Source of the DNA: Thermoanaerobaculia bacterium
Lineage (GTDB): Bacteria > Acidobacteriota > Thermoanaerobaculia > Multivoradales > UBA5704
Reading direction: 5' to 3'
NCBI GenBank assembly: GCA_036503335.1
Contig: DASXXC010000419.1
Span: 20,363 to 84,362 of the forward strand
DNA length: 64,000 nt
Positions within the stretch are counted from its first letter, which is position 1, and the number at the start of each line of letters is the position of its first letter. A program made the translations under genes and the position numbers. The notes under the pieces are model-generated. The model did no database searches. It worked only from the letters and a program-made list of their open reading frames with translations, and was not told the origin of the DNA. This document shows, piece after piece, positions 850 through 13,136 of this stretch.

Positions 850-1737
850 ATGGTCATTATGGCAAACGTCCTCAGCAACGCCGACCGGACCGCCGTCGTC
901 GCCGCCCTTGTCGAGGGCAACTCGATCCGCGCCACCTCCCGCATGACGGGGGTGGCCCGGAACACGGTCACCAAGCTCCTCCTTGACCTCGCGAAGGTGT
1001 GCGCGGCCTACTCGGATGAGCGGCTGGTGAACCTGCCTTGCAAGCGGCTCCAGGTCGATGAGATTTGGGAGTTCTGCTACGCCAAGGCGAAGAACGTGCC
1101 GCCCGCGAAGAAGGGCGTTTTCGGCTACGGCGACGTGTGGACGTTCGTTGCCATCGACGCCGATACCAAGCTGGTGCCGTCGTGGCTGGTGGGCTCGCGG
1201 GACATCGGCAGCGCGACCGAGCTGATGCAGGATCTCGTCTCCCGCCTCTCCGGCCGCGTGCAGCTCACCACAGACGGCCTGAAGGCGTACATCTCGGCGG
1301 TCGAGGACGCTTTCGGCGGGGACGTGGACTACGGGATGCTCAACAAGATCTATGCCGCTCCGCCGAACGGCCCAGAGACGCGCTACAGCCCCGCCGAGTG
1401 CACCGGCTGCGAGAAGCGGGTGATCGTCGGCAACCCCGACAAGAAGCACGTCAGCACGTCGTTTGTGGAGCGCCAGAACCTCACGATGAGAATGTCCATG
1501 CGGCGCTTTACGCGGCTGACGAACGGCCACAGCAAGAAGGTGGAGAACCACGGCGCCGCCATCGCGGTCCATTTCGCCTACTACAACTTCTGCCGGACTC
1601 ACATGAGCCTCGGAAAGGGACCGGACGGTAAGGGGGTGACCCCGGCGATGGCGGCCGGAGTCGAGTCGCGGAAGCTCGAAATCTCTGACCTCATAGCCTT
1701 ACTTCCCGATTCAGAAAATAAGGCGGGGTCAAAATGA
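850..1737 (+). CDS. IS1-family transposase (single fused ORF)
   Basis: An N-terminal HTH-like region is followed by a DDE region. The C-terminal block ERQNLTMRMSMRRFTRLTNGHSKKVENH and the ...RTHMSLGKGPDGKGVTPAMAAGV tail match the InsB-type C-terminus (ERTHLNIRTHLKRLARKTICFSRSVEMH pattern). The gene is isolated and flanked by non-coding repeats. Confidence 0.8.
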   Translation: MVIMANVLSNADRTAVVAALVEGNSIRATSRMTGVARNTVTKLLLDLAKVCAAYSDERLVNLPCKRLQVDEIWEFCYAKAKNVPPAKKGVFGYGDVWTFVAIDADTKLVPSWLVGSRDIGSATELMQDLVSRLSGRVQLTTDGLKAYISAVEDAFGGDVDYGMLNKIYAAPPNGPETRYSPAECTGCEKRVIVGNPDKKHVSTSFVERQNLTMRMSMRRFTRLTNGHSKKVENHGAAIAVHFAYYNFCRTHMSLGKGPDGKGVTPAMAAGVESRKLEISDLIALLPDSENKAGSK

Positions 1738-2602: not shown

Positions 2603-2789
2603 AGGTGCCAGGACCACCCCGAACTCGGGTCCGTCCTCTTAAACACATTTCTGTATCCCGTAGGGAGGCAGGAAGGGGAGGAGGGGCGAAGGAGTCCGAT
2701 CTCGAGGGGCCGGGCCGTCGCTTATCCAATCGTCATTGAGCGCTACAATAGTATACGATTGCTATAAGTCTAGAGGAGAACAAGCAAAG

Positions 2790-3656
2790 ATGCCGAGATC
2801 AACTAAGCCTCCCGAACCAAGGCCTGCTCAACTCACACCAGATCTGATGGCAAGGGGGCTGCCCAAGCTAGAACGAAGGATCGAGGAGCTTAAAAGCTTT
2901 GACGTGCGCACGCTTAAGAAGCGCGGGGATCCTGCTGCCGAGGCGCTTAAGAATAAGGTCAACGGAACGCTGCGAGAGCTTTTAGGGTACGATACTATCG
3001 AGTACGAAGAGTATAGCACGTACTCTCTGGATACACTGCCGATGAGGATAGGGGGCTATCCGCATCCGATTGAGGACATCTGGGAGGGATATCAAGAGGG
3101 GATTGATCGCGCGGTTACAAAGCTTCAGACGCTCAAGGCAGTGTTTGAGGAGCGTTTAGCTGATTTAGATGTTAGGGACGTCTCTTCGGAGCAGGAATCT
3201 CTCGCACCATCGAGCCCTAGAATATTTCTTGTTCATGGTCATGATGCGGCTACAAAGCTTGGCGTTGCTCGCTTTTTGGAACGGCTTGGGCTGGAGCCCA
3301 TAATTCTTCATGAGCAGGCCAACGAAGGCAAGACCATTATCGAGAAATTCGAGGTTCACTCCGCTGTAGATTTTGCGGTTGTATTGCTGACTCCGGACGA
3401 TATGGGTTATCCGCTCGACAAGCCGGAATTGACCCAGCCTCGTGCTCGGCAGAACGTAATAATGGAGCTTGGATTTTTTCTCGGAAGTCTAGGGCGTGGC
3501 AAAGTAGCCGTTCTCTATAAGAAAGGGGTGGAGATCCCTTCCGACTATCAGGGGGTAGCTTTTATTTCATTGGATGAAAGCGATGGATGGCACCTCCAAC
3601 TTGCTAGGGAGTTGAAGAAGGCAGGCCTTAATGTTGACCTCAACCGGGTTGTATAG
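2790..3656 (+). CDS. TIR-like / SLOG-type predicted nucleotide-binding domain protein (COG4271/MTH538-like C-terminal domain) with a helical N-terminal region
   Basis: C-terminal block IFLVHGHDAATKLGVARFLERLGLEPIILHEQANEGKTIIEKFEVHSAVDFAVVLLTPDD...PRARQNVIMELGFFLGSLGRGKVAVLYKKGVEIPSDYQGVAFISLD is the characteristic COG4271 TIR-like signature. AGGAGA Shine-Dalgarno sequence sits before the ATG at 2790. The gene is markedly lower in GC than its neighbours. Confidence 0.7.
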   Translation: MPRSTKPPEPRPAQLTPDLMARGLPKLERRIEELKSFDVRTLKKRGDPAAEALKNKVNGTLRELLGYDTIEYEEYSTYSLDTLPMRIGGYPHPIEDIWEGYQEGIDRAVTKLQTLKAVFEERLADLDVRDVSSEQESLAPSSPRIFLVHGHDAATKLGVARFLERLGLEPIILHEQANEGKTIIEKFEVHSAVDFAVVLLTPDDMGYPLDKPELTQPRARQNVIMELGFFLGSLGRGKVAVLYKKGVEIPSDYQGVAFISLDESDGWHLQLARELKKAGLNVDLNRVV

Positions 3657-3922: not shown

Positions 3923-4816
3923 CTACCACATCAGCTCCGCCGTGACCGGCAGGTGGTCCGAGGTTCCGAGTGGCCAGGCGCGCGAGGCCCGGACCTGCCA
4001 GCCGTGGTCCACGAAGATGTAATCGATCTGCTCCTTCCAGCGCGGAAAGGTCGGACCGATCCCCCTTGAGGCGAGCTGGGCGGCGTTCTCGTGGAGGAAC
4101 GCCCTCATCTCCGGCGAGCCCGGACCCGTGTTGAGGTCCCCGGCGAGGATGTACGGGTAGCGGCTGGTGCGGACCTCCCGGGCCAGGCAGTCCAACTGCT
4201 CCCTCCGGATCTTCGAGTTGAGGCGGCCCCAGGTCGTGAGGTGCGTGGCGTAGAAGCTGATCGTGGCTCCGTCGATGCGGACCGTCGCCTCGAGGAGCGC
4301 CCGCGGCTCGCCGACGCAGGGCAACGGATGTGCCTCCGCCCGCACGATCTGGCCGCGGGTGAGGATCGCGTTGCCGAACTCGCCGCCCCACCGGACATAG
4401 CTCGGGACGAAGTAGCCGTGGAGGCCGGTGCCCGATTCCAGCTCGGCGACCTGATCGCGAAAGCGTGACTGCCAGGTCTTGCGGTGTACCTCCTGCAAGG
4501 CCACGAGGTCCGGGTGGAGGCGCTGGATCGCCTCGGCGATGTGGCGCACGTGATCGCCGTCGATCAGCTCGTCGTGGCCCGCGATGTTGTAGGTCATCAC
4601 CACGAGAGGCCGGCGCTGCGGCGGAAAGCCGGACCGCTCCGGGAAGCTGACGAGCGCGCCGTGCTCGTCGCGCGTCAAGAGGCGAAGGCTGGGGTCGACC
4701 GGCCGGGGCCGGCACTCGCCGGAACGTACGGTGAAGATGAACAAGACCCGGTAGAGAGCGGGCACGAGGAGGAGGGCGAGCACGCCGAGGATCAGTCTTC
4801 GCTTCTTGAGGGCCAT
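3923..4816 (-). CDS. Endonuclease/exonuclease/phosphatase (EEP) family protein with an N-terminal membrane anchor or signal
   Basis: Hydrophobic N-terminus (LILGVLALLLVPALYRVLFIF) followed by EEP-fold motifs (VMTYNIAG, LQEV, GDLN, SDHLPV). Confidence 0.85.
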   Translation of the reverse strand: MALKKRRLILGVLALLLVPALYRVLFIFTVRSGECRPRPVDPSLRLLTRDEHGALVSFPERSGFPPQRRPLVVMTYNIAGHDELIDGDHVRHIAEAIQRLHPDLVALQEVHRKTWQSRFRDQVAELESGTGLHGYFVPSYVRWGGEFGNAILTRGQIVRAEAHPLPCVGEPRALLEATVRIDGATISFYATHLTTWGRLNSKIRREQLDCLAREVRTSRYPYILAGDLNTGPGSPEMRAFLHENAAQLASRGIGPTFPRWKEQIDYIFVDHGWQVRASRAWPLGTSDHLPVTAELMW

Positions 4817-4959
4817 CGCTATCCGATCTCCAGGTCTCTGCTCTCCAGGTGGCGGCCCTGGACAGCAGGGCCCGGATTGTAGCGAAGCGTGGAGCGAAAC
4901 AGCGGCGGGCGAGGCCTAGAGGAGAGCGCTGGGTGGCTTGGACGCCTGGACGCCCTGCT

Positions 4960-5754
4960 TCAACTGGCGGAGGAAATCGACCAGCGCCTTGCCAGGGTCG
5001 GGCTCTCCGGAAGAGAGGACGTCGATTCCCAGCCGGCCGAGCACCTGCTGATCGATCGGATTGGGGAAGCCTGGAAGAGATAGGAACGGGGCCGCGCGCC
5101 GTCGCGGCCGACCCGCTCCCAGAGCTTCGCGAGCTTATAGAACAGATAACGGATGTTGAAGTCCGAGAAGCTGTAGCCGATGAAGAGCACGGAACGGCCC
5201 AGGACGTCGGCGCGGAGCTTCAGGTCGAGAGCCGTCTGAAACTCCAGCCGGTCGAAATAGCTCGATTCGGTCAGCACGAGCGAGGAATCGTCGTCGAAGT
5301 CACCATGGAACTTGACGATCTGCGTGACGCCCTCGCGGATCTTCACCATGTCGTCCACCTTGGCGATCCGGGTGTAGCTCCGCTCGATCCGTTCGTGAGC
5401 CGATTCGAGCCAGCGGTCATAATTGGTTGTATAGAGGATCGGGAAATCGAGATCGAGGATGAGGTTGTGGACCTCGGAATCCTCAATGCGGATATCCTTG
5501 GAGTGCCACTCCCGGTCCATGAGACTGCGGAGCGGGCCGATGCTGCCTTTCTTCAATACGTAGTACTCGGCCAGGCTCTGGAAGTTGCCGTAGGAACGGA
5601 AGATGTCGGGATCGAAATCCAGATCCCTGGCCATGAGCGCGATCAACTGGGACCACGAGGGGAGCTTCAATCCCATGGAGACCCCGGCTCCGGCGAAGAG
5701 AATCACCCGCCGCTCCGCGAGGGCGGCGATCAACTCGTCTGATGAATGCGCCAT
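4960..5754 (-). CDS. SIR2-like (SIR2_2/DSR/ThsA-type) domain protein. The C-terminal ~55 aa are probably out of frame; an alternative reading ends at 4916.
   Basis: ILFAGAGVSMGLKLPSWSQL, YTTNYD, KFHGD, SSLVLTESSYF and RSVLFIGYSFSDFNIRYL are the SIR2_2 signature blocks. The annotated tail (SPIRSISRCSAGWESTSSLPESPTLARRWSISSAS) looks unnatural. The -1 frame instead gives PNPIDQQVLGRLGIDVLSSGEPDPGKALVDFLRQLKQGVQASKPPSALL up to a TAG at 4916-4918. Confidence 0.75.
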   Translation of the reverse strand: MAHSSDELIAALAERRVILFAGAGVSMGLKLPSWSQLIALMARDLDFDPDIFRSYGNFQSLAEYYVLKKGSIGPLRSLMDREWHSKDIRIEDSEVHNLILDLDFPILYTTNYDRWLESAHERIERSYTRIAKVDDMVKIREGVTQIVKFHGDFDDDSSLVLTESSYFDRLEFQTALDLKLRADVLGRSVLFIGYSFSDFNIRYLFYKLAKLWERVGRDGARPRSYLFQASPIRSISRCSAGWESTSSLPESPTLARRWSISSAS

Positions 5755-6317
5755 ACCGGCTCCAGCTTCGCGCAGAGCGCGTCGAGCGCCTTGCGGCGCA
5801 TGGAGATCTCGTCCTTGATCTCATCTCCCATCTCTGCGTAGGTCTGGGAATAGCCGTCTGGGACGAAGAGTCTGTCCCAACCGAAACCGGCTATGCCCTT
5901 GGGCTCGGGAGCGATCCGGCCGCGGACACACCCCTTCGCCTGAACGATCTTGCGGCCGTCGCAGTATCCAACCATCGTACAGGCGAAGAGGCGCTGCTCC
6001 TCCTGCTTCCCGAAAAGCCGCAGGAACCTCTCGGGCCTCGACCGTTCAGGGCCCAGACCCATCCAGAAGCTCTGGGTCAGGCCGCCAGGCAGGCCGTTCA
6101 GGCACCGCACGTACAAGGCGGTGTGCTCGACCAGCAAAGGTAACCGGACCTTCTGAAAAGCGTCCAGCGTCTTCTGGCGGACGAGCCTGGGGAGGCTGTG
6201 AGTCTGGATCTCCTCGATCCCCAAATTCTTCCAGACGACGTCGATACCGCGGGGACCGAGGATGCTCTGAGCTTCCAGAACCTTTCGCTCAGACTGGGAT
6301 ACTAGAAAGAGCCGCAC
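5730..6317 (-). CDS. Ham1/RdgB/ITPase-family protein, divergent
   Basis: The C-terminal block GFGWDRLFVPDGYSQTYAEMGDEIKDEISMRRKAL matches the Ham1 GFGYDPIF...TFAEM...ISHR..AL region, and the fold is recognisable throughout. Canonical positions are substituted: SQS for TGN, EHTAL for EDSGL, and SMR for SHR. It overlaps the SIR2 gene start by 25 nt. Confidence 0.75.
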   Translation of the reverse strand: MRLFLVSQSERKVLEAQSILGPRGIDVVWKNLGIEEIQTHSLPRLVRQKTLDAFQKVRLPLLVEHTALYVRCLNGLPGGLTQSFWMGLGPERSRPERFLRLFGKQEEQRLFACTMVGYCDGRKIVQAKGCVRGRIAPEPKGIAGFGWDRLFVPDGYSQTYAEMGDEIKDEISMRRKALDALCAKLEPVWRIHQTS

Positions 6318-6345: not shown

Positions 6346-8970
6346 TCACGGCAGAGCCGCGGAATTTTCGAAGCGCCGGCGCGGTGGAGCGCCGACGATG
6401 CTCTCCGGCTCGTCCAGTGGACGAGGAGGCAGAGTGAACTGGCTGATGCATCCTTGGGCGCGGACCCGCTCCAACCACCGCTCCGCCTCTTCCTGAGAGA
6501 GGCCGCTCACCACCAGCGTATCGATCAGCTTTTGATACTCCTCACGCAAGGTCGTGGCGAAGGTGACCGGATCGTCGGACCCGATACAGACCGAGATCGG
6601 CTGCAGGGGCGTGCCGTCCCGGGGAGGAGAGAGGCGCCAGAGCGGATGCCGGCCGAGGTCCCGCAGGTCTCCGATCAGGAAATTCGAGCTCGGGTTCGCC
6701 TCGATGACGATGCCGTGAGCGCCGACGTGGCGGATCAGCTCCGACTGGATCGTGGCGAGCGCCTCCCCCTCCGGCTCGGTCCGGATCCATTCGAGCTCAT
6801 GTCCGTTCTGGAACACCACGGGATCGGTCAGGAACTGCACGAGCAGGTTACGGCGCTTGCGGTCCTCGATCTCTCCCCGGGCCACTCCACCCCGGAAGGG
6901 CCGGCCGCTCGGGAATCCGACTTGGCAGAGGACCTCGGGCTTGTGCAGATCCTCGACCATCTTCTCCAGGCGGTCGGCGGGATGCGGTTTGCCGAAAATC
7001 TCTTGGGAAAGGCGGGCGATCTCCCGCATCAGGTGGCTGACCCTGCGGCCATCCGGAGGGCTCACGCGGGCCAGGGAATACCAGCCCCACTCCCAGACCA
7101 GATCGAACAGGCGCTCCTCCTTGGGCATCACCACCGAGCCGGTCCGCTTCGCCCAATCCAACGGATCGAGGCCCAGGGCCATCGCGTGCCCGAGCCGGTC
7201 CCCCTCCTGGAGCGGCAGGAACTCCATCGCTTCCGTCACCCGGCGGAGCCCGGTGAGCAGATGAGCGAAATCCTCGCCCGCGTGTACCGTGCTCCGCAGC
7301 GCGGGCGCGGTCTCCTCCGACATCTCCTGAAGGAAGCTCGAAGCTTCCCGGCCGGCGGCGTGAACGTATTGGAACACGGGCACCAGGACCCAGGTGGGAA
7401 CCCCCGCCTCGTCCGTGCAGATGTCGAGCCCGCGCAGCAGAAACAGAACGCTGGGGTGGCGCTGGATGGCCGTCGCCAGCGCCAGCGCCTCCCGCTTCTT
7501 TTTCTGGTAGTAAATCGAATAACGCCAGCCCGTCCGCTTGTGACGCGGATCGGCATAGGAATCGGCCCAGCGGTTTCCGAGCCTCCCCTCCGCCGCGTGG
7601 CCGCCCCGGTCCCGGGTGAAATGGAGAATGAGACCGACCTCGACAGGATGATCCCTGACCCGCTCACACCGCTCCTGGAGGGAGCGGGCGGCCAGCTCCG
7701 TGTCCTTGAAGAGCGTGACGTGCTCGGAGACCGACTCGGACGGCGCGGTCCGGAGCTCCAGATAGCGCAGGCCATGGCCGATCCCCTCCAACTGGGCCGT
7801 GCTCTCGATCTGCACCTTCGTCCCCCAGGCTCTCGCCGTACGGATCCGGCCATAAAAGCGGAAAAACCATTGCAATCCCGGAGTCAAGGGGCGCTGCACG
7901 AGGTGCTGGTAGAAGATGCCGCGCACCCGGATCACCTGCCAGAACAGAGATTCGAAAAGCGCGTCTTTCTTGCCCTTGCCGGCCCTGTCCTCCAGATGCC
8001 ACAGGCCCGCCGCCACGAACCGGATCTCCGGTGTGGGAACGACTGGCGACTCGGATGCCGGAAAATAGCGGGCGATCGGATCGAGCTGCTGGATCTCGGA
8101 GGCACACGTCGGCTCTTTCCATACCGTCGCTCCGCTCAGGCGCGCATAGAGTCCCCGGACCTCGGATAGCTTGATCCCATGCTCAGGCTCCAGCCGGCCA
8201 TGGACGAGCTCCCGGGCCACCGCCTGCAGGAGAGCCGCTCCGGTCGCTCTGAGCTCCGAAGCCAGGACCCCTTGCACCCATTGGGCAAAGCCCATCTCCC
8301 GCGCGTCGCGATCGGTCAGGAACGCGCCCATGAGCACCCGCACGAGCGCGGCCCGGGCCAGCCATTCGCCGAGCTCCTGCCCCTCATTGAATGCGGCGCC
8401 CGGGCTGCGGAAGTCCGAGGCATCGAGGCGCGAGTGCGCCATCACGAGGAGCACTCCCACCCAGAGATCCGTGAATTCGGAGGCGGCTCCGAAGTGCAGA
8501 TGAAGCTGCCCGAAACCGCGGTCCTTCAGCATGCGGTCGAGCCGGGGGGACACCGTGGCGACTCTGCGGCAGGGAGGGGGGCCCTTCTCGATCGCGGCCA
8601 GGAGCAGATCGGGAGGGAGCGAGAGAGCGATCCATTGCCAGAAGATCCTGGAGTCCGCTCCGGAGCTGTCGGGAGTCTGGAGCTCCTCCGGCAGCCTGGG
8701 CCACACCGTCGCTCCGTCCACCCGCAGGCACCGGGCGGCGATGGACCGCAACAGCGCCTCCAGAGGGACGTCGGTCTTTGACCGTTCCCCCTTCTCCGAG
8801 AACCAGATGTAATCGCGCAGGTTGGTGATCTCGTCGATCGAAAGCGAACGCGAGCGGAGATCGTTCTCCACGCACCGCCAGAAGTCGCCGGTCGGTCCCT
8901 TCAGGTCCGGGCACAGGTTCGTGACGTTGGTCCGGAACGCAAGCTCGGTGGCAAAGGGATACGACGCCAT
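6346..8970 (-). CDS. rdrB: Large adenosine-deaminase-fold protein, RdrB-like (RADAR deaminase candidate)
   Basis: LHLHFGAA (HxH metal ligands), STVHAGEDF (HAGE motif) and SVCIGSDDPVTFATTL (SLNTDDP-like), with IEANPSSN immediately upstream, are the adenosine/AMP deaminase signature blocks. They are spread over an 874-aa protein with large insertions. It lies 66 bp downstream of the big ATPase on the same strand. Confidence 0.7.
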   Translation of the reverse strand: MASYPFATELAFRTNVTNLCPDLKGPTGDFWRCVENDLRSRSLSIDEITNLRDYIWFSEKGERSKTDVPLEALLRSIAARCLRVDGATVWPRLPEELQTPDSSGADSRIFWQWIALSLPPDLLLAAIEKGPPPCRRVATVSPRLDRMLKDRGFGQLHLHFGAASEFTDLWVGVLLVMAHSRLDASDFRSPGAAFNEGQELGEWLARAALVRVLMGAFLTDRDAREMGFAQWVQGVLASELRATGAALLQAVARELVHGRLEPEHGIKLSEVRGLYARLSGATVWKEPTCASEIQQLDPIARYFPASESPVVPTPEIRFVAAGLWHLEDRAGKGKKDALFESLFWQVIRVRGIFYQHLVQRPLTPGLQWFFRFYGRIRTARAWGTKVQIESTAQLEGIGHGLRYLELRTAPSESVSEHVTLFKDTELAARSLQERCERVRDHPVEVGLILHFTRDRGGHAAEGRLGNRWADSYADPRHKRTGWRYSIYYQKKKREALALATAIQRHPSVLFLLRGLDICTDEAGVPTWVLVPVFQYVHAAGREASSFLQEMSEETAPALRSTVHAGEDFAHLLTGLRRVTEAMEFLPLQEGDRLGHAMALGLDPLDWAKRTGSVVMPKEERLFDLVWEWGWYSLARVSPPDGRRVSHLMREIARLSQEIFGKPHPADRLEKMVEDLHKPEVLCQVGFPSGRPFRGGVARGEIEDRKRRNLLVQFLTDPVVFQNGHELEWIRTEPEGEALATIQSELIRHVGAHGIVIEANPSSNFLIGDLRDLGRHPLWRLSPPRDGTPLQPISVCIGSDDPVTFATTLREEYQKLIDTLVVSGLSQEEAERWLERVRAQGCISQFTLPPRPLDEPESIVGAPPRRRFENSAALP

Positions 8971-9036
8971 CTCCGCGCAGATCTCCAGCGTGGGGATGGC
9001 GAGGGTGCGGGCGGCGGCGTTGTTGGTGGTCAGGGC

Positions 9037-11955
9037 TTATCCCCCAGAATTCTCATCGAGGTCGGGAAAAGCAGCACGCAACTGGGCTGTGAAGCCTTCC
9101 AGTGCGAAAGCGATCCGCTCTTGTGGGTCTCTGAGCCCTTTCTTGAGGAGCCGTTCTTGGGCTTGTTTCAACTCCTCGGAATTAGGCACCAGCTCACCGC
9201 CAAGAAGCTCATTGACCGGATGGATGTTGCTCAATTCCGCCGGGCTCATGCTGCTATCGCCCTTCTTGATCAGCATGCCAATCTTTTCATTGTCTATGAA
9301 GGGTGCAAGGCGATCTGCGCGAAGGTTGCGTATGCGCGAAGCTCTAGAACGTGATTCCTTAGGGTCACCTAGAAAGTTGCTCAAAGTGCTCTTGGCGAGG
9401 AGCGTGGTTATCGCTTGTTTCACGATGCTATGGTCTTGTGTTGCAAGGAATCCGGATTCCGGTGCAAGAAGAACGGGCAATCGAATAAGCCAGCTTTTGA
9501 TCCTTTCTGCTCGTACTGTCACGGCATTGGAGTCCTTAACGAGTTGTTCTATGGCTTCTGCCAATTTAACCCAAAGCTCGGAGCCAATCTCAACCTCGTC
9601 GAGAGAATCGGGAATGGTCTTGAGACCCGTGTCAGTTAAAGATTGCTCCTCGGAACCCGACGTCTCGGATTTGCTCGACTCCTGTGGTGGCGGTGGAGGT
9701 GGCGGATCCGATTTCTCAAAGATTTTGCATATCCCCGCGATCCAGGTATAGAGCAGCAAAGCTCTTTGATGCGGCTCGTCCCCTAGATACCACAGGTCAC
9801 TGCGAAGAGCGGAGTCCCAGATGTGACTGAGCTGATCGAACTCCCAGAAGCTAGTCCAGGCAGGGGTAATCCAAGGGACCTTTACTGCGTCACGAAGCCC
9901 CAGATCCCAGGCAGCTACGGCCCAACCCAGGTCCAGTGAGTTGGGCGAGAGAGAATGAGAGCCGACGATGCCTCCCCACCTCTCCAAGGCCAGGAGGTCA
10001 TGCAGCAGTACGATCAGGGCCTTGGTCCGTTCGGCGATCTCAATCGGGCGCTCTCTTTCCAGGTCCCAAAAGGCCCAGGAGCGCCGATAGCTAGCGTGCA
10101 GCGTGCAATCGTGATCGCGAAACGGGATGATCCTGCCGGGAACGGATATGCTTCGAGCCTCGACAAACCTCATAGCTTGAAGCCATTCCTCGTCTGGGTT
10201 GACTCCGAGCGCCTCTACGAAGCGCTCCCTGTAACGAATTGACAACAGCTCGTCTTCCTCCATGGCCCGGTGAGTCTCCATTCCGACCAAATTTATAAGC
10301 ATGGTGAGGTGTGATTTCCACTTATCCTCGGGGCCATGCGGAGTCTCGCGATGAATAAGGTCACGTATGGAAAACCATAGGTCGGCAATATAGCGTGGAG
10401 TTGCCTTGAGCAGCGTAGAGCCCGTGTAGGGGAAGATGCGTTCCTGGTCCGTTTTTTCTCTGCTCTTCTTTTCGAGTAAATTCTGTTCCTCGAGTGTGCT
10501 TGCTCTTGCGCCAGGTTTGGAGGAGGTCAATTCTTGAAGGCGTACATTGAAGCAAAGGAATTCGCAAAAATTGGGAACAATCTTGCCTGCGATGGATTGT
10601 AGCTTGTGCCTTTTGACCTTTTCGAGTTGTTTCTGTTCTTCGGATTCCTCGGGTTGAGGGGGTTGTTGTTGCCCTGTTTCTTTTCTGTCTGGCTCAAAGG
10701 CCGTTTCAATATCTATCGGAAGCTGCTCAAGGAGGTCTCGGAGTCTTTCTTTGTCGTTATTCCAGCCGTTTTTCGTATCCTCATTTCTGAGGTGGCGAGG
10801 ATGAAAATTGAGAGCTTCCCATACTTTTAATGCTCCCAGCTCAATCCGCTGCCCCGGAGGCACGAGCTTGCGGATCGCATGGCCGGATAAGGATCGCGCT
10901 ATACCTCGGATCTCCGAGGAAGACAGAGACAGGTAATCGGGTGTATAAGCGGCTTCGAGCACCTTGGCAAAGTCGCCGCTCTTCCTCAAGTTGAACATCA
11001 GCTCCGCCATCCGGACGTCACCCAAAACTATGATGAAAAGGCGGGGTGAGGTGACCATGCGGATCAGGTGCAGAAGCTCCAGGGAACGCAGAGGGTTCAG
11101 GTCATAGTCGTCTACCGGGAGAACGAAGAACGGGTTCTTGACGTAACTGCTCTTGCCGAGCTCCTGCGCGAGGTCATCGAGAGCCTTGTTGAGGGCTGCG
11201 TTGATCCCTACACGCGCATCCTCGACGCGAGTGACTTCAGCGGCGTAAGCGTCAGGGTCCAAGGCGCTGGCGCGAGCATCCACGTTACCGTCCCAGGCGA
11301 TGGCAACGTCTGCGGCCAATTTTCGTAGCCCATGTAGAGCCTTTTCCCCCGACGCGAGGCTCAGAAGGCCACTCTGGTAAGTTTTGTCATCCTTTTTCTG
11401 ATTAAAACGAGTAGCGGCTCGGTCAATCCGTGCTAGAATAGCCGCGAGGAGATTGACGGGGCGCGGTAGTGGTTCCATGTCCAAGGGATCAAGCCATACG
11501 AGGCGATCCTGCAGCTCTTCCAGAGATTTCCCTATCGCATCAGGGGTTTTCTGCTGATTATTTGTACTGGCATCCGGACCTTGCGATTTTGTGCCGGCTT
11601 TATCATTCGTAGTTGTCTCTTCTTTTTTGTCTCTTCTCTCGTCGCTGGCCTGGCAAAACCTGTCAGGATCGAGGAAGGCCTCGAACAAAGAAACGAGGAC
11701 CGTGGACTTGCCTGTCCCTCGTTTTCCCGAGACGAAGACCAGCCGGCTCGACCGGAAACGATCCGGGGTGGCGGGGAGGTTGGGAGGGTTCTCCGCGGAC
11801 TTCTGCCTGGCGGCCTCATCGACATCACGTCGAGCGTCTTTCAGCGCGTCGAGAATCTTGCGAAAGGCGCTCTGCTGGGAGGCATTCAGGAGATCCCAGC
11901 GCAGCGGCCGGGCTTCGGGGCGTAGGACGTAAGGCGTCTTCTCGTCGGAAGCCAT
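9037..11955 (-). CDS. rdrA: Large P-loop NTPase, RdrA-like (RADAR ATPase candidate)
   Basis: Walker A motif VFVSGKRGTGKSTVL at about aa 75-88 and Walker-B-like FFVLPVDDYD. It is about 970 aa, the first gene of the string, and the gene body is lower in GC than its neighbours. Confidence 0.65.
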   Translation of the reverse strand: MASDEKTPYVLRPEARPLRWDLLNASQQSAFRKILDALKDARRDVDEAARQKSAENPPNLPATPDRFRSSRLVFVSGKRGTGKSTVLVSLFEAFLDPDRFCQASDERRDKKEETTTNDKAGTKSQGPDASTNNQQKTPDAIGKSLEELQDRLVWLDPLDMEPLPRPVNLLAAILARIDRAATRFNQKKDDKTYQSGLLSLASGEKALHGLRKLAADVAIAWDGNVDARASALDPDAYAAEVTRVEDARVGINAALNKALDDLAQELGKSSYVKNPFFVLPVDDYDLNPLRSLELLHLIRMVTSPRLFIIVLGDVRMAELMFNLRKSGDFAKVLEAAYTPDYLSLSSSEIRGIARSLSGHAIRKLVPPGQRIELGALKVWEALNFHPRHLRNEDTKNGWNNDKERLRDLLEQLPIDIETAFEPDRKETGQQQPPQPEESEEQKQLEKVKRHKLQSIAGKIVPNFCEFLCFNVRLQELTSSKPGARASTLEEQNLLEKKSREKTDQERIFPYTGSTLLKATPRYIADLWFSIRDLIHRETPHGPEDKWKSHLTMLINLVGMETHRAMEEDELLSIRYRERFVEALGVNPDEEWLQAMRFVEARSISVPGRIIPFRDHDCTLHASYRRSWAFWDLERERPIEIAERTKALIVLLHDLLALERWGGIVGSHSLSPNSLDLGWAVAAWDLGLRDAVKVPWITPAWTSFWEFDQLSHIWDSALRSDLWYLGDEPHQRALLLYTWIAGICKIFEKSDPPPPPPPQESSKSETSGSEEQSLTDTGLKTIPDSLDEVEIGSELWVKLAEAIEQLVKDSNAVTVRAERIKSWLIRLPVLLAPESGFLATQDHSIVKQAITTLLAKSTLSNFLGDPKESRSRASRIRNLRADRLAPFIDNEKIGMLIKKGDSSMSPAELSNIHPVNELLGGELVPNSEELKQAQERLLKKGLRDPQERIAFALEGFTAQLRAAFPDLDENSGG

Positions 11956-12248
11956 GAATCCTCACTCTTTGGAAAAAGAAAGGGTCATTCTCTTAAAAGT
12001 ATAGAGAGGAGGATCTCGCTCCTGTCAAGGATTCTTGCTGATAGAAATATTCATCTCCGCGAAGGGAAGCGGTGAGGCCTCCGCCAAGAGATAGACGGAC
12101 GCTGGTTGGAAGTTCCGCGGGGATTCGGGAGAAGAGGTAGACCCCCTCCGGGATCAGAGGAGGACCCGGTGTATAATCGTCCGGCACTGACTCCTGGCGC
12201 TTACCCGCATCGGCTCGTCCCGCCATCGTCTTCGCAACGGAGGCCGCT

Positions 12249-13136
12249 ATGAGAGCACATCGTTTCGCCTGGCTGCCGGTCCTGGTTTTCGCCCTCCCTG
12301 GCTTCGGCGCAACCCCGGCCCCCCCGGTCTCGGGCCAGTTCGTGCTGGACGGAAAGGCGGTGGCGGTGAGCGAGGTCGCGGCTTTCCGGATGCGCGATCA
12401 GTTCAATCCCCGGACCCTCGAGACCTATGTGATGCTGACCGCCAAGCCCGTGGACCGGGCGGCGATCAGCGCCTCCCTCGATCCCTATAGCGTGGCGATC
12501 AACGATCCCGCGACGCTCCACGCCGACTACATCGCTTTCAGCGTGCGCGCCAACGGCGAGGTCGGCATGAACGCTCACGTGGGCGGGGTCCAGTACATCG
12601 ACACCTCAGGCAGGATCATGGGCCAGCCCGGCTCTCTGGTCGCGAAATGCAGCGAGAACACGCCGACGCGCGTCGCTTGCCACGTGAAGACGGAGAAGCC
12701 GGTCAAGACGATGGACGGGCCGACCTTTTCGCTGGACCTGAGCTTCGAGGCCGACGTGCAGTCCCGCAAGCCGGGCAAGCCCCTGGCCAAGGAGGACCAG
12801 GCCCCCGGCCAGGCGCTGCTGGCGCTGCGGGCCGCGGTCGCGGGTGACGACCTGGCCAAAATCCTGGCGCTTCTCACGCCTGAGCAGGCCAAGAGCTACC
12901 AGGAGGATTGGCAATCGCCGGCGGAGAATCTCAAATCCGCCAAGGACATCCTGAACGTCCAGCTCCCGAAGAATCCCAAGATCACCGGCGGCGAGATGCT
13001 GGCCGACGACCACGTGGTGCTGGAGGTCGAAGGCGAGCCGTACGAGAACGGTCACATGCTCTACCTCGTGGAGATGCGGCGGATCGACGGCCGCTGGCTC
13101 TACGAGCGGGCGAGCGTGGCCGGGATGTTGCGCTGA
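12249..13136 (+). CDS. Secreted hypothetical protein (signal peptide)
   Basis: N-terminal MRAHRFAWLPVLVFALPGFGA signal-like segment, coding-like composition, and a terminator hairpin directly downstream. Confidence 0.55.
   Translation: MRAHRFAWLPVLVFALPGFGATPAPPVSGQFVLDGKAVAVSEVAAFRMRDQFNPRTLETYVMLTAKPVDRAAISASLDPYSVAINDPATLHADYIAFSVRANGEVGMNAHVGGVQYIDTSGRIMGQPGSLVAKCSENTPTRVACHVKTEKPVKTMDGPTFSLDLSFEADVQSRKPGKPLAKEDQAPGQALLALRAAVAGDDLAKILALLTPEQAKSYQEDWQSPAENLKSAKDILNVQLPKNPKITGGEMLADDHVVLEVEGEPYENGHMLYLVEMRRIDGRWLYERASVAGMLR

What the first reader, a model, noticed from the sequence alone, without database searches (positions are those of the whole stretch)
4960..6317. A divergent Ham1/ITPase-like gene and a SIR2-like gene translationally coupled to the deaminase: a possible extended RADAR variant not described before
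The Ham1-like ORF starts 29 bp after the deaminase stop and overlaps the SIR2-like ORF by 25 nt, so all four genes read as one transcription unit. I do not know of Ham1 or SIR2 as RADAR accessory genes (rdrC/rdrD are small unrelated proteins). The pairing is mechanistically suggestive. RdrB-type deaminases make (d)ITP, and Ham1 enzymes hydrolyse (d)ITP. The Ham1-like protein could therefore act as a built-in antidote or timer, or use (d)ITP as a signal. It also has substitutions at canonical positions (TGN to SQS, EDSGL to EHTAL, SHR to SMR), so it might bind rather than hydrolyse inosine nucleotides. The SIR2 domain is a known NAD-depleting abortive-infection effector, which suggests a second effector arm.
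Basis: inference. Interest (0 to 1): 0.9.

Follow-up and report, generated by a model that had tools for sequence, protein, structure and literature searches.

The report
RADAR-like deaminase operon carrying Kongming KomBC
The "Ham1-like" and "SIR2-like" genes are KomB and KomC, the inosine-nucleotide sensor and NAD-destroying effector of the published Kongming anti-phage system, here attached to a RADAR-like ATPase/deaminase pair, a combination the Kongming authors already noted but did not test, and the SIR2 gene carries a real one-base frameshift.

Summary
Four co-oriented minus-strand genes are tightly packed: RdrA-like ATPase, RdrB-like deaminase, a Ham1-like gene 28 nt downstream, and a SIR2-like gene overlapping it by 25 nt.

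The claim "not described before" does not hold. The Ham1/SIR2 pair is KomB/KomC of the Kongming defence system. The best solved-structure matches are KomB (E=1.4e-44) and KomC (E=1.3e-88, 60% identity). The Ham1-like protein carries the clade-defining catalytic Asp-to-His change (H65). In Kongming, KomB is a dead ITPase that binds dITP and switches on KomC's NADase.

Zeng et al. already mention RADAR-like systems associated with KomBC as an untested candidate subtype.

New here:
- The fusion recurs but is rare: 2 of 80 metagenomic RdrB-like loci, in two gene orders. The KomBs involved are not each other's closest relatives.
- This KomB differs at two ligand-pocket positions, N9S and Q141G.
- KomC has a 1-nt deletion that puts its last 47 codons out of frame. 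The deletion is identical in six independent assemblies.

Verdict: a new member of a known kind, of moderate interest.

The parts
9037..11955 (-). RdrA-like P-loop/AAA+ ATPase (972 aa), the presumed infection sensor and activator of the deaminase
   Evidence: Walker A is G77-x2-G80-x-G82-K83 and Walker B is D282/D283; these are invariant in alignments A2 and A3. K83 matches E. coli RdrA K82. A profile of 42 family members has RADAR RdrA (8hr7, 8fnt) as its best PDB hits, E=3e-6. The AF2 model has pLDDT 74.8 and pTM 0.76. Its 15 best Foldseek hits in the PDB are all RdrA structures (E 2e-6 to 5e-4), and the next hit has E>0.4. A single-sequence search found nothing, and PADLOC RdrA scored only E=7.6e-5.
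6346..8970 (-). RdrB-like adenosine deaminase (874 aa), the presumed (d)ATP to (d)ITP converter
   Evidence: PADLOC RdrB E=1.3e-45. PDB RdrB 8fnw/8fnv E=1.2e-30 over residues 340-845. H157, H159, H563, E566, H595 and D799/D800 are invariant in 27 relatives. They correspond to E. coli RdrB H152, H154, H498, E501 and H530. It is 100% identical to a Thermoanaerobaculia MAG protein.
5730..6317 (-). KomB homologue (195 aa): a catalytically dead HAM1/ITPase-fold nucleotide sensor
   Evidence: Pfam Ham1p_like E=7e-35. The best PDB hit is KomB 8zsg, E=1.4e-44, 45% identity; canonical ITPases score E=1e-21 or worse. H65 replaces the catalytic Asp. K12, E15, K49, T66, F140, W142 and R168 are conserved; R8Q, N9S, H11R and Q141G differ from E. 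coli KomB.
4916..5754 (-). KomC homologue (SIR2 NADase effector) interrupted by a frameshift. The annotated ORF 4960-5754 gives 264 aa; the intact reading would give 278 aa with its stop at 4916-4918.
   Evidence: The best PDB hit is KomC 8zsf, E=1.3e-88, 60% identity over residues 6-231, and the alignment stops at 231. Catalytic H150 (=H146), D198 (=D194) and N111 are present. The C-terminus is recovered in another frame and aligns with the Ralstonia and L001 KomC.
5063..5066 (-). Frameshift site: a CCCC run where one G is missing relative to the closest relative (gcttc[g]cccaat)
   Evidence: DNA alignment with L001. The 900 nt of the KomC region are base-for-base identical in six independently assembled contigs from different sequencing runs, so this is not an assembly error of this window.
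11956..12248 (-). Intergenic region upstream of rdrA-like, where the operon promoter would lie (inferred)
   Evidence: The divergent ORF starts at 12249 (+). No sigma-70-type consensus was found there. The position is inferred from gene layout only.

Best explanation
This is a four-gene anti-phage operon that joins a RADAR-like signal generator to the Kongming effector module.

Proposed pathway:
1. The RdrA-like ATPase senses infection and activates the RdrB-like deaminase.
2. RdrB converts dATP/ATP directly into dITP/ITP.
3. The KomB homologue, an ITPase fold whose catalytic Asp is His, binds the inosine triphosphate without hydrolysing it.
4. KomB, in complex with KomC, switches on KomC's SIR2 NADase.
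5. NAD+ is depleted and the infected cell is sacrificed.

Canonical Kongming works differently upstream. There KomA makes dIMP, and a phage dNMP kinase is needed to reach dITP. Here RdrB would bypass the phage kinase, so trigger specificity would come from RdrA.

What is shown here: the homology of all four proteins, the conservation of their catalytic and binding residues, the gene layout, and its recurrence elsewhere.

What is inferred from published work on E. coli RADAR and Kongming: every biochemical step.

In this particular population KomC carries a 1-nt deletion that replaces its last 47 residues. The NADase arm may therefore be weakened or dead, leaving a RADAR-only system.

The confidence value refers to the coupled mechanism. 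The identity of the four genes (RdrA-like, RdrB-like, KomB, KomC) I hold at about 0.95.
For: KomB/KomC identity:
- PDB hits to KomB E=1.4e-44 and KomC E=1.3e-88.
- H65, the defining Asp-to-His change, is H in 107 of 121 family members and Q in the other 14.
- KomC catalytic H150, D198 and N111 are present.

RADAR-like identity:
- RdrB hits in PADLOC and the PDB, with all zinc-binding and catalytic residues invariant.
- The RdrA fold match is exclusive.

Coupling:
- A 28-nt gap and a 25-nt overlap.
- No KomA-like short deaminase anywhere in the 64-kb window, so RdrB is the only local source of inosine nucleotides.
- The same gene order occurs in L001 (RdrB 81% and KomB 65% identical to the window's) and in L028. 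L076 has the order KomB-KomC-RdrA-RdrB.
- The RdrB-linked KomBs are only 40-46% identical to each other and are closer to KomBs from other contexts. This suggests repeated, selected joining.

Published mechanism:
- RdrB makes ITP and dITP in vivo and in vitro (PMC9994260).
- dITP activates KomBC NADase, and KomBC does not degrade dITP.
- A structural basis exists for the activation.
- Zeng et al. propose this same RADAR-KomBC synergy.

Defence-island context: an adjacent TIR gene matches PADLOC PDC-S35 at E=8.7e-79.
Against: - No experiment exists on any RADAR-KomBC operon.
- KomC is frameshifted after residue 231. In E. coli KomC the lost segment contains interface residues Q231 and E233. The mutation is present in all six assemblies.
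- Q141, reported as essential in E. coli KomB for dITP recognition and for excluding ITP, is Gly here, and N9 is Ser. The ligand may differ, or binding may be impaired.
- The association is rare. Of 80 metagenomic RdrB-like loci, 54 have at least 1.5 kb of sequence after RdrB; one of these carries KomBC downstream and one other locus carries it upstream. Close relatives L013, L015 and L017 lack it. RdrAB clearly works without KomBC.
- RADAR produces very large amounts of (d)ITP, whereas E. coli KomBC was shown to respond to 1 nM dITP. How leaky activation would be avoided is unexplained.
Confidence: 0.65

Rival explanations
1. The Ham1-like protein is an active (d)ITP pyrophosphatase. It would act as an antidote or timer that clears RdrB's toxic product, or would drive ATP to ITP to IMP depletion.
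For: It has the Ham1 fold and most nucleotide-binding residues. The idea is attractive given RdrB chemistry.
Against: The catalytic Asp is His65, as in most KomB-clade proteins sampled (H in 107 of 121, Q in the other 14). Zeng et al. report that this clade invariably carries the substitution and that KomBC yields no dITP hydrolysis products. The protein matches KomB about 23 orders of magnitude better than any active ITPase. It is translationally coupled to KomC, its obligate partner in Kongming.
Confidence: 0.04
2. RdrAB-like and KomBC are two independent defence modules that merely sit next to each other in a defence island. KomBC would be fed by some other dITP source, such as a phage kinase plus a host deaminase.
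For: Most RdrAB-like loci lack KomBC. KomBC pairs with many different partners and with KomA in Ralstonia. Defence genes cluster in any case, and a TIR PDC-S35 gene lies nearby.
Against: The spacing leaves no room for a separate promoter: a 28-nt gap, an SD sequence, and overlap with komC. KomBC alone has no known way to obtain its signal, and no KomA exists in the window. The pairing recurs in at least three KomB lineages and in two gene orders, always contiguous and co-oriented.
Confidence: 0.12
3. In this organism the KomBC arm is a recent pseudogene. The frameshift has inactivated the toxic NADase, and the locus now works, if at all, as a plain two-gene RADAR-like system. This is compatible with the ancestral mechanism given as the best explanation.
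For: A 1-nt deletion lies after codon 231. It is identical in six independent assemblies and absent at that site in the relative L001. The displaced frame still encodes an undamaged, conserved C-terminus, so the event is recent. In E. coli the lost segment carries KomC-KomC interface residues. Two-gene RdrAB-like systems are the norm.
Against: The catalytic core (residues 1-231) is intact and the shifted frame stays open for 33 codons, so a truncated protein could retain activity. The deletion lies in a CCCC run, where P-site tRNA-Pro slippage could restore some full-length protein; this is speculation. The assemblies may derive from one population.
Confidence: 0.4

Closest known systems
Kongming (KomA-KomB-KomC), E. 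coli NCTC13216; Zeng et al. bioRxiv 10.1101/2024.12.20.629578, structures 8zsf-8zsi/9xvc (Li et al. PMC13454610)
   Same: KomB and KomC homologues at 45% and 60% identity. The KomB catalytic Asp is His. KomC has its catalytic His, Asp and Asn. The two genes are adjacent and coupled. An adenosine-deaminase-family gene lies immediately upstream.
   Different: - The deaminase is not the roughly 350-aa KomA but an 874-aa RdrB-type enzyme with its own RdrA-type ATPase.
- The predicted substrate is therefore (d)ATP rather than dAMP, and no phage dNMP kinase should be needed.
- KomB pocket residues N9 and Q141 are Ser and Gly.
- KomC is frameshifted.
RADAR (RdrA-RdrB, optionally with RdrC/RdrD); Gao et al. 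2020 (from memory); Duncan-Lowey et al. PMC9994260
   Same: The gene order is ATPase then deaminase. RdrB zinc-binding and catalytic residues are conserved. The RdrA Walker motifs and overall fold match.
   Different: The proteins are very divergent: RdrA is detectable only by profile or fold search, and RdrB matches the PDB RdrB chains at E=1.2e-30 over residues 340-845. The family occurs in Thermoanaerobaculia, Planctomycetota and Eremiobacterota MAGs. The accessory genes are KomBC rather than RdrC/RdrD.
"RADAR-like systems associated with KomBC", a candidate Kongming subtype in Zeng et al. fig. S19A
   Same: The same concept: RdrB as (d)ITP generator feeding KomBC.
   Different: It was only mentioned bioinformatically. 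I could not see the figure, so I cannot say whether this lineage or this gene order is among their examples.
Housekeeping ITPases (RdgB, ITPA, Mj0226)
   Same: The fold and the base- and phosphate-binding residues. The Gly in FGWD resembles ITPA.
   Different: The catalytic Asp is replaced by His and SHR is replaced by SMR. The gene is operonic with a SIR2 effector. PDB E-values are 1e-21 or worse, against 1e-44 for KomB.
Thoeris ThsA and other SIR2 effectors (DSR1/2, SIR2-APAZ)
   Same: A SIR2_2 NADase domain (PADLOC ThsA E=1.4e-30) used as an abortive-infection effector.
   Different: There is no SLOG/STALD sensor domain. Sensing is delegated to a separate KomB subunit.

Membership tests
Kongming KomBC effector module | KomB: a HAM1-fold protein of the 'defensive HAM1' clade with the catalytic Asp replaced by His | tested here: met
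   H65 lies in VEHTAL. The best PDB hit is KomB at E=1.4e-44, against 1e-21 or worse for active ITPases. Among 121 relatives the position is H in 107 and Q in 14. The feature is defined in Zeng et al..
Kongming KomBC effector module | KomB retains the dITP-contact residues shown by mutagenesis to be essential (R8, K49, F140, Q141, W142; N9/K12/E15; T66; R168) | tested here: inconclusive
   K12, E15, K49, T66, F140, W142 and R168 are conserved. R8Q, N9S, H11R and Q141G differ. R8 and H11 vary across the family. N9 (112 of 121) and Q141 (109 of 121) are normally conserved.
Kongming KomBC effector module | KomC: a SIR2 NADase with catalytic His146 and Asp194 | tested here: met
   60% identity to KomC 8zsf. 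H150, D198 and N111 are present.
Kongming KomBC effector module | Intact full-length KomC (about 264 aa, including the C-terminal interface segment) | tested here: not met
   A 1-nt deletion between bases 5066 and 5065 puts residues 232 onward out of frame. It is identical in six assemblies.
Kongming KomBC effector module | komB and komC adjacent and co-oriented | tested here: met
   25-nt overlap. The same pairing occurs in L001, L002-5, L016, L028 and L076.
Canonical three-gene Kongming (KomABC) | KomA: a stand-alone adenosine deaminase of roughly 350 aa (PF00962) acting on dAMP | tested here: not met
   The upstream deaminase is an 874-aa RdrB-type protein. tblastn with Ralstonia KomA finds nothing in the window.
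Canonical three-gene Kongming (KomABC) | Activation by phage dNMP kinase; dITP-stimulated NAD+ hydrolysis | not testable with these tools
   Biochemistry and phage assays are needed.
RADAR | RdrB: a large adenosine deaminase with four zinc-binding His and a catalytic Glu | tested here: met
   PADLOC RdrB E=1.3e-45 and PDB 8fnw E=1.2e-30. H157, H159, H563, E566 and H595 are invariant, matching E. coli H152, H154, H498, E501 and H530.
RADAR | RdrA: an ATPase with Walker A/B motifs and the RdrA fold, encoded immediately upstream of rdrB | tested here: met
   K83 and D282/D283 are invariant. The profile hits RdrA at E=3e-6. The top 15 Foldseek PDB hits are all RdrA. Caveats: global TM-score is only 0.26-0.33 and the single-sequence search was negative.
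RADAR | Infection-induced conversion of (d)ATP to (d)ITP; the giant RdrA-RdrB complex | not testable with these tools
   Inferred only from conserved residues.
Housekeeping ITPase (RdgB/ITPA) | Catalytic Asp in the (E/D)D(S/T)G motif and the SHR motif | tested here: not met
   EHTAL and SMR.
Thoeris ThsA | SIR2 fused to a SLOG/STALD cADPR-sensing domain | tested here: not met
   Only the SIR2 part aligns (PADLOC profile positions 12-213 of 478). The protein would be 278 aa even when repaired.

The most novel reading that the evidence does not exclude
The KomB of this lineage has a remodelled ligand pocket. Q141 is the residue that in E. coli KomB contacts hypoxanthine O6 and sterically excludes the 2'-OH of ITP. 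Here it has reverted to the Gly of true ITPases, and N9 has co-varied to Ser, Glu or Asp.

This KomB might therefore sense ITP, RdrB's most abundant product, or both ITP and dITP. That would make ribo-ITP a new immune second messenger and would recast RADAR's output as a signal rather than only a poison.

Supporting hints:
- Gly at position 141 occurs in 2 of 3 independent RdrB-linked KomB lineages (window/L001, and L076). Among the other KomBs sampled it occurs in roughly 3%.
- RADAR-like operons have recruited SIR2 effectors by at least two routes: KomBC, and a TauD-like gene plus SIR2-TPR.

Counter-hints:
- L028 keeps Q141.
- Gly 141 also occurs in an operon without RdrB (L016).
Probability: 0.2. 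Interest if true: 0.6.

Novelty: new member of a known kind. Interest (0 to 1): 0.35.

Why it matters
RADAR's mode of killing is still debated: ATP depletion, or toxicity of ITP/dITP. Kongming showed that dITP can act as a second messenger. An operon that joins the two offers a clean test of whether RADAR-made inosine nucleotides act as signals. It also tests whether a signalling system can swap an enemy-dependent generator (KomA plus a phage kinase) for a self-contained one (RdrAB).

The idea is already in print as a hypothesis, so this window supplies a further natural example rather than a new concept. It adds two things an experimenter would want to know before cloning: pocket substitutions that may alter ligand choice, and a frameshift in KomC that must be repaired.

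Tried and rejected
- Single-sequence PDB search with the ATPase found only P-loop noise. RdrA was reached only with a 42-sequence profile and an AF2 model plus Foldseek.
- The GTDB genome scan with the RdrB-like protein returned one irrelevant weak locus. No species-representative genome carries a close relative.
- The IMG/VR scan with the RdrB-like alignment found nothing, so the family is not visibly phage-borne.
- I tested whether Gly141 in KomB tracks RdrB association. It does so only partly: L076 has Gly, L028 has Gln, and L016 has Gly without RdrB. It is kept as a lead, not a finding.
- I tested whether the 283-aa third gene of other RADAR-like loci is a hidden Ham1-like sensor. It is not. 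It has an HxD...H motif and a faint TauD/asparagine-oxygenase similarity.
- Assembly error as the cause of the KomC frameshift is rejected, because six independent assemblies are identical over 900 nt. L001's own, different 1-nt deletion is probably a sequencing error, because that contig also splits RdrA into fragments.
- The contigs around the closest RdrA-like relatives (P0154, P0156) end before the position where KomBC would lie.
- The promoter and terminator scans were uninformative.
Full report
**Observation**

On the minus strand the window carries four co-oriented ORFs:
- 9037-11955, 972 aa.
- 6346-8970, 874 aa.
- 5730-6317, 195 aa, GTG start.
- 4960-5754, 264 aa.

The gaps are 66 nt, then 28 nt, then a 25-nt overlap. 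Both small genes have GGAG motifs at Shine-Dalgarno distance.

Pfam gives Ham1p_like at E=7e-35 and SIR2_2 at E=2.3e-24. The 874-aa protein hits A_deaminase. PADLOC gives RdrB at E=1.3e-45, but only a marginal RdrA hit (E=7.6e-5) for the 972-aa protein.

**What the Ham1/SIR2 pair is**

A search of solved structures identifies both proteins. The Ham1-like protein's best match is KomB (8zsg, E=1.4e-44, 45% identity). Active ITPases trail at E=1e-21 or worse. The SIR2-like protein's best match is KomC (8zsf, E=1.3e-88, 60% identity over 226 residues).

[quoted passage not shown] In that system:
- KomA is an adenosine deaminase, KomB a HAM1-like protein and KomC a SIR2 protein.
- KomB and KomC form a stable complex. 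dITP activates its NADase, and KomBC does not hydrolyse dITP.
- 'Defensive HAM1s' invariably carry His in place of the catalytic Asp while keeping the nucleotide-binding residues.

The window protein has that His (H65). Among 121 relatives recovered here the position is H in 107 and Q in 14, never Asp. In KomC the catalytic H146, D194 and the TTNYD Asn correspond to window H150, D198 and N111.

The "antidote or timer" alternative is not supported.

**Is the upstream pair RADAR-like?**

RdrB: yes.
- It matches RADAR RdrB structures (8fnw/8fnv, E=1.2e-30, residues 340-845).
- In an alignment of 27 relatives, H157, H159, H563, E566, H595 and D799/D800 are invariant.
- These correspond to the E. 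coli RdrB zinc ligands H152, H154, H498 and H530 and the catalytic E501 (PMC9994260).

RdrA: yes, but distantly.
- A single-sequence search fails.
- A profile of 42 family members puts RdrA (8hr7, 8fnt) on top at E=3e-6 across the ATPase domain.
- An AlphaFold2 model (pLDDT 74.8, pTM 0.76) has 15 Foldseek hits in the PDB at E of 5e-4 or better. All are RdrA structures, most aligned over 800-1,000 columns. The next hit has E>0.4.
- Global TM-scores are low (0.26-0.33), as expected for a multi-domain protein with different domain packing.
- The Walker A lysine K83 matches E. coli RdrA K82.

**Is the combination new?**

No, not as a concept. Zeng et al. write that, where KomA is absent, KomBC associates with other nucleotide-metabolism genes. 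[quoted passage not shown] S19A), and that this needs further investigation.

I could not see the figure; the supplement text gives only its legend. No other paper in the library treats the combination. It is therefore an already noted but untested candidate subtype.

**Comparative survey**

Origin of the window. The RdrB-like protein is 100% identical to a protein of a Thermoanaerobaculia MAG, and the same locus was assembled from many sequencing runs.

The four-gene order recurs:
- In L001, where RdrB is 81% and KomB 65% identical to the window's, with the same Oxidored_FMN neighbour upstream.
- Probably in the 2.4-kb contig holding P0001, whose KomB is 97% identical.

KomBC also occurs without RdrAB. 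In Ralstonia solanacearum the KomB homologue sits in a canonical KomA(349-365 aa)-KomB-KomC operon next to Gabija.

The RdrB-like family is mostly a two-gene system:
- L013, L015 and L017 have ATPase plus deaminase only.
- A metagenome scan gave 80 loci with RdrB-like genes, 54 of them with at least 1.5 kb of downstream sequence.
- Only L028 has RdrB followed by KomB and KomC. Only L076 has KomB-KomC-RdrA-RdrB.
- About a dozen loci have a different third gene of about 265 aa, and three of these also have a SIR2-TPR protein.

The three RdrB-linked KomB lineages are 40-46% identical to one another. Each is closer to KomBs from other contexts. This argues for repeated independent joining of the two modules.

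The GTDB species representatives and IMG/VR contain no close relative of this RdrB. No KomA-like short deaminase exists anywhere in the 64-kb window.

**Features specific to this copy: the KomB pocket**

Li et al. (PMC13454610) showed that K49, F140, Q141, W142 and R8 are essential in E. coli KomB. They also showed that Q141, which is unique to KomB relative to ITPases, contacts hypoxanthine O6 and crowds the 2' position, explaining why dITP is recognised and ITP is not.

The window protein keeps K12, E15, K49, T66, F140, W142 and R168. It has Q8, S9, R11 and G at the Q141 position (FGWD, as in true ITPases).

Across the 121 sequences aligned (the window protein plus its 120 best hits), N9 is Asn in 112 and position 141 is Gln in 109. 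Gly occurs in 8, and all 8 also lack Asn9. Four of those eight are the window's own lineage. The other four belong to a clade whose representative locus has a canonical, Asp-containing ITPase gene in front of KomB-KomC and no RdrB (L016). The KomB of L076 (RdrB-linked) has Gly; that of L028 (RdrB-linked) has Gln.

The link between Gly141 and RdrB is therefore suggestive at best: 2 of 3 lineages, against a background of a few per cent, with very small n. A relaxed 2'-OH exclusion that allows ITP sensing is possible but untested.

**Features specific to this copy: the KomC frameshift**

- The alignment with E. coli KomC stops at window residue 231.
- The conserved C-terminus (NPIDQQVLGRLGIDVLSSGEPDPGKALVDFLRQLKQ...) lies in another frame and ends at 4916-4918.
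- DNA alignment with L001 shows that the window lacks one G in gcttc[g]cccaat, between bases 5066 and 5065.
- The 900 nt from the komC start are identical in six independently assembled contigs, so the deletion is real in this population.
- The displaced frame is otherwise undamaged, so the event is recent.
- In E. coli KomC the missing segment includes Q231 and E233 at a KomC-KomC interface.

Whether the truncated and altered protein still works is unknown. L001 has a different 1-nt deletion about 30 nt upstream. That contig also fragments RdrA, so I attribute its deletion to sequencing error.

**Mechanism proposed**

1. RdrA-like senses infection.
2. The RdrB-like deaminase converts dATP/ATP to dITP/ITP.
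3. Dead-ITPase KomB binds the inosine triphosphate.
4. The KomBC assembly is remodelled.
5. KomC hydrolyses NAD+, giving abortive infection.

The difference from canonical Kongming is that the triphosphate is deaminated directly. The phage dNMP kinase step is bypassed, and trigger specificity moves to RdrA.

Shown here: homology, residue conservation, layout and recurrence. Inferred from E. coli work: all enzymology.

Main caveats: the frameshift, the altered pocket, and the rarity of the association. A further open problem is how a sensor that in E. coli responds to 1 nM dITP avoids leaky firing next to an enzyme as productive as RdrB.

**Verdict**

- The mechanistic intuition is largely right.
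- The novelty claim is wrong.
- This is a new natural member of a known, literature-flagged hybrid of two known systems.
- The useful extras are the pocket substitutions, the effector frameshift, and evidence for repeated modular joining.
- Interest is moderate at 0.35. The most novel surviving reading, ITP rather than dITP as the messenger in RADAR-linked KomBC, has a probability of about 0.2.

Noticed in passing
window 2736-3656 (+): A 306-aa TIR-domain protein matches the PADLOC candidate single-gene defence system PDC-S35 (E=8.7e-79; Pfam CAP12-PCTIR_TIR). It lies about 1.3 kb beyond the end of komC, so the operon sits in a small defence island.
   Followed up: partly
window 850-1737 (+) and 1745-1923: An ORF with a faint IS1-type DDE transposase signal is followed immediately by an array of short palindromic units (CCCC-N4-GGGG-like, about 21-nt period; 4 overlapping 74-nt copies). 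This may be a REP-like element or a mobile-element end flanking the island.
   Followed up: no
window 9000-11500: The rdrA-like gene has markedly lower G+C (0.50-0.58) than rdrB, komB, komC and the flanks (0.62-0.75). It also contains low-complexity, low-pLDDT inserts (residues 115-135, 418-451 and 760-773). This suggests mosaic or foreign origin.
   Followed up: no
window 3923-4816 (-): A 297-aa Exo_endo_phos family protein with an N-terminal hydrophobic segment starts about 100 nt after the repaired komC stop, on the same strand. It has no PADLOC hit. Whether it belongs to the operon is unknown. It is absent after KomC in L001 and Ralstonia.
   Followed up: partly
L014 9868-12392; also L042, L045, L051-L053, L055, L058, L062, L068, L077, L094: A subclade of RADAR-like operons carries a conserved third gene of about 265 aa directly after rdrB. 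It has an invariant HxD...H pattern (H89, D91, H234) and a faint TauD/asparagine-oxygenase similarity. In three loci (L014, L055, L058) it is followed by a SIR2-TPR protein (PADLOC Aga_SIR2 E=2e-60). This may be a second, undescribed way of coupling RADAR-like modules to a SIR2 effector.
   Followed up: partly
L016 4229-5742: This operon has a canonical ITPase with its catalytic Asp intact (199 aa, Pfam Ham1 E=7e-56, AEDSGI/SHR motifs), followed by a Gly141-type KomB and the start of KomC. No deaminase is visible on the 5.7-kb contig.
   Followed up: partly
L076 658-8488: The alternative gene order KomB-KomC-RdrA-like(1148 aa)-RdrB-like lies on one strand. The same four components are assembled in a different order.
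   Followed up: partly
proteins P0163 and P0186: Some RdrA-like relatives are fused to other domains: PLD-like PF13091 in a 1384-aa protein and TPR repeats in a 1269-aa protein. This hints at effector or sensor fusions within this ATPase family.
   Followed up: no
PDB 9v0g and related entries: A second, more divergent solved HAM1-SIR2 complex exists (ITPase-like chain E=2.7e-22, SIR2 chain E=4.1e-42). It has His at the catalytic position and His at the Q141-equivalent position. I did not find the associated paper.
   Followed up: no
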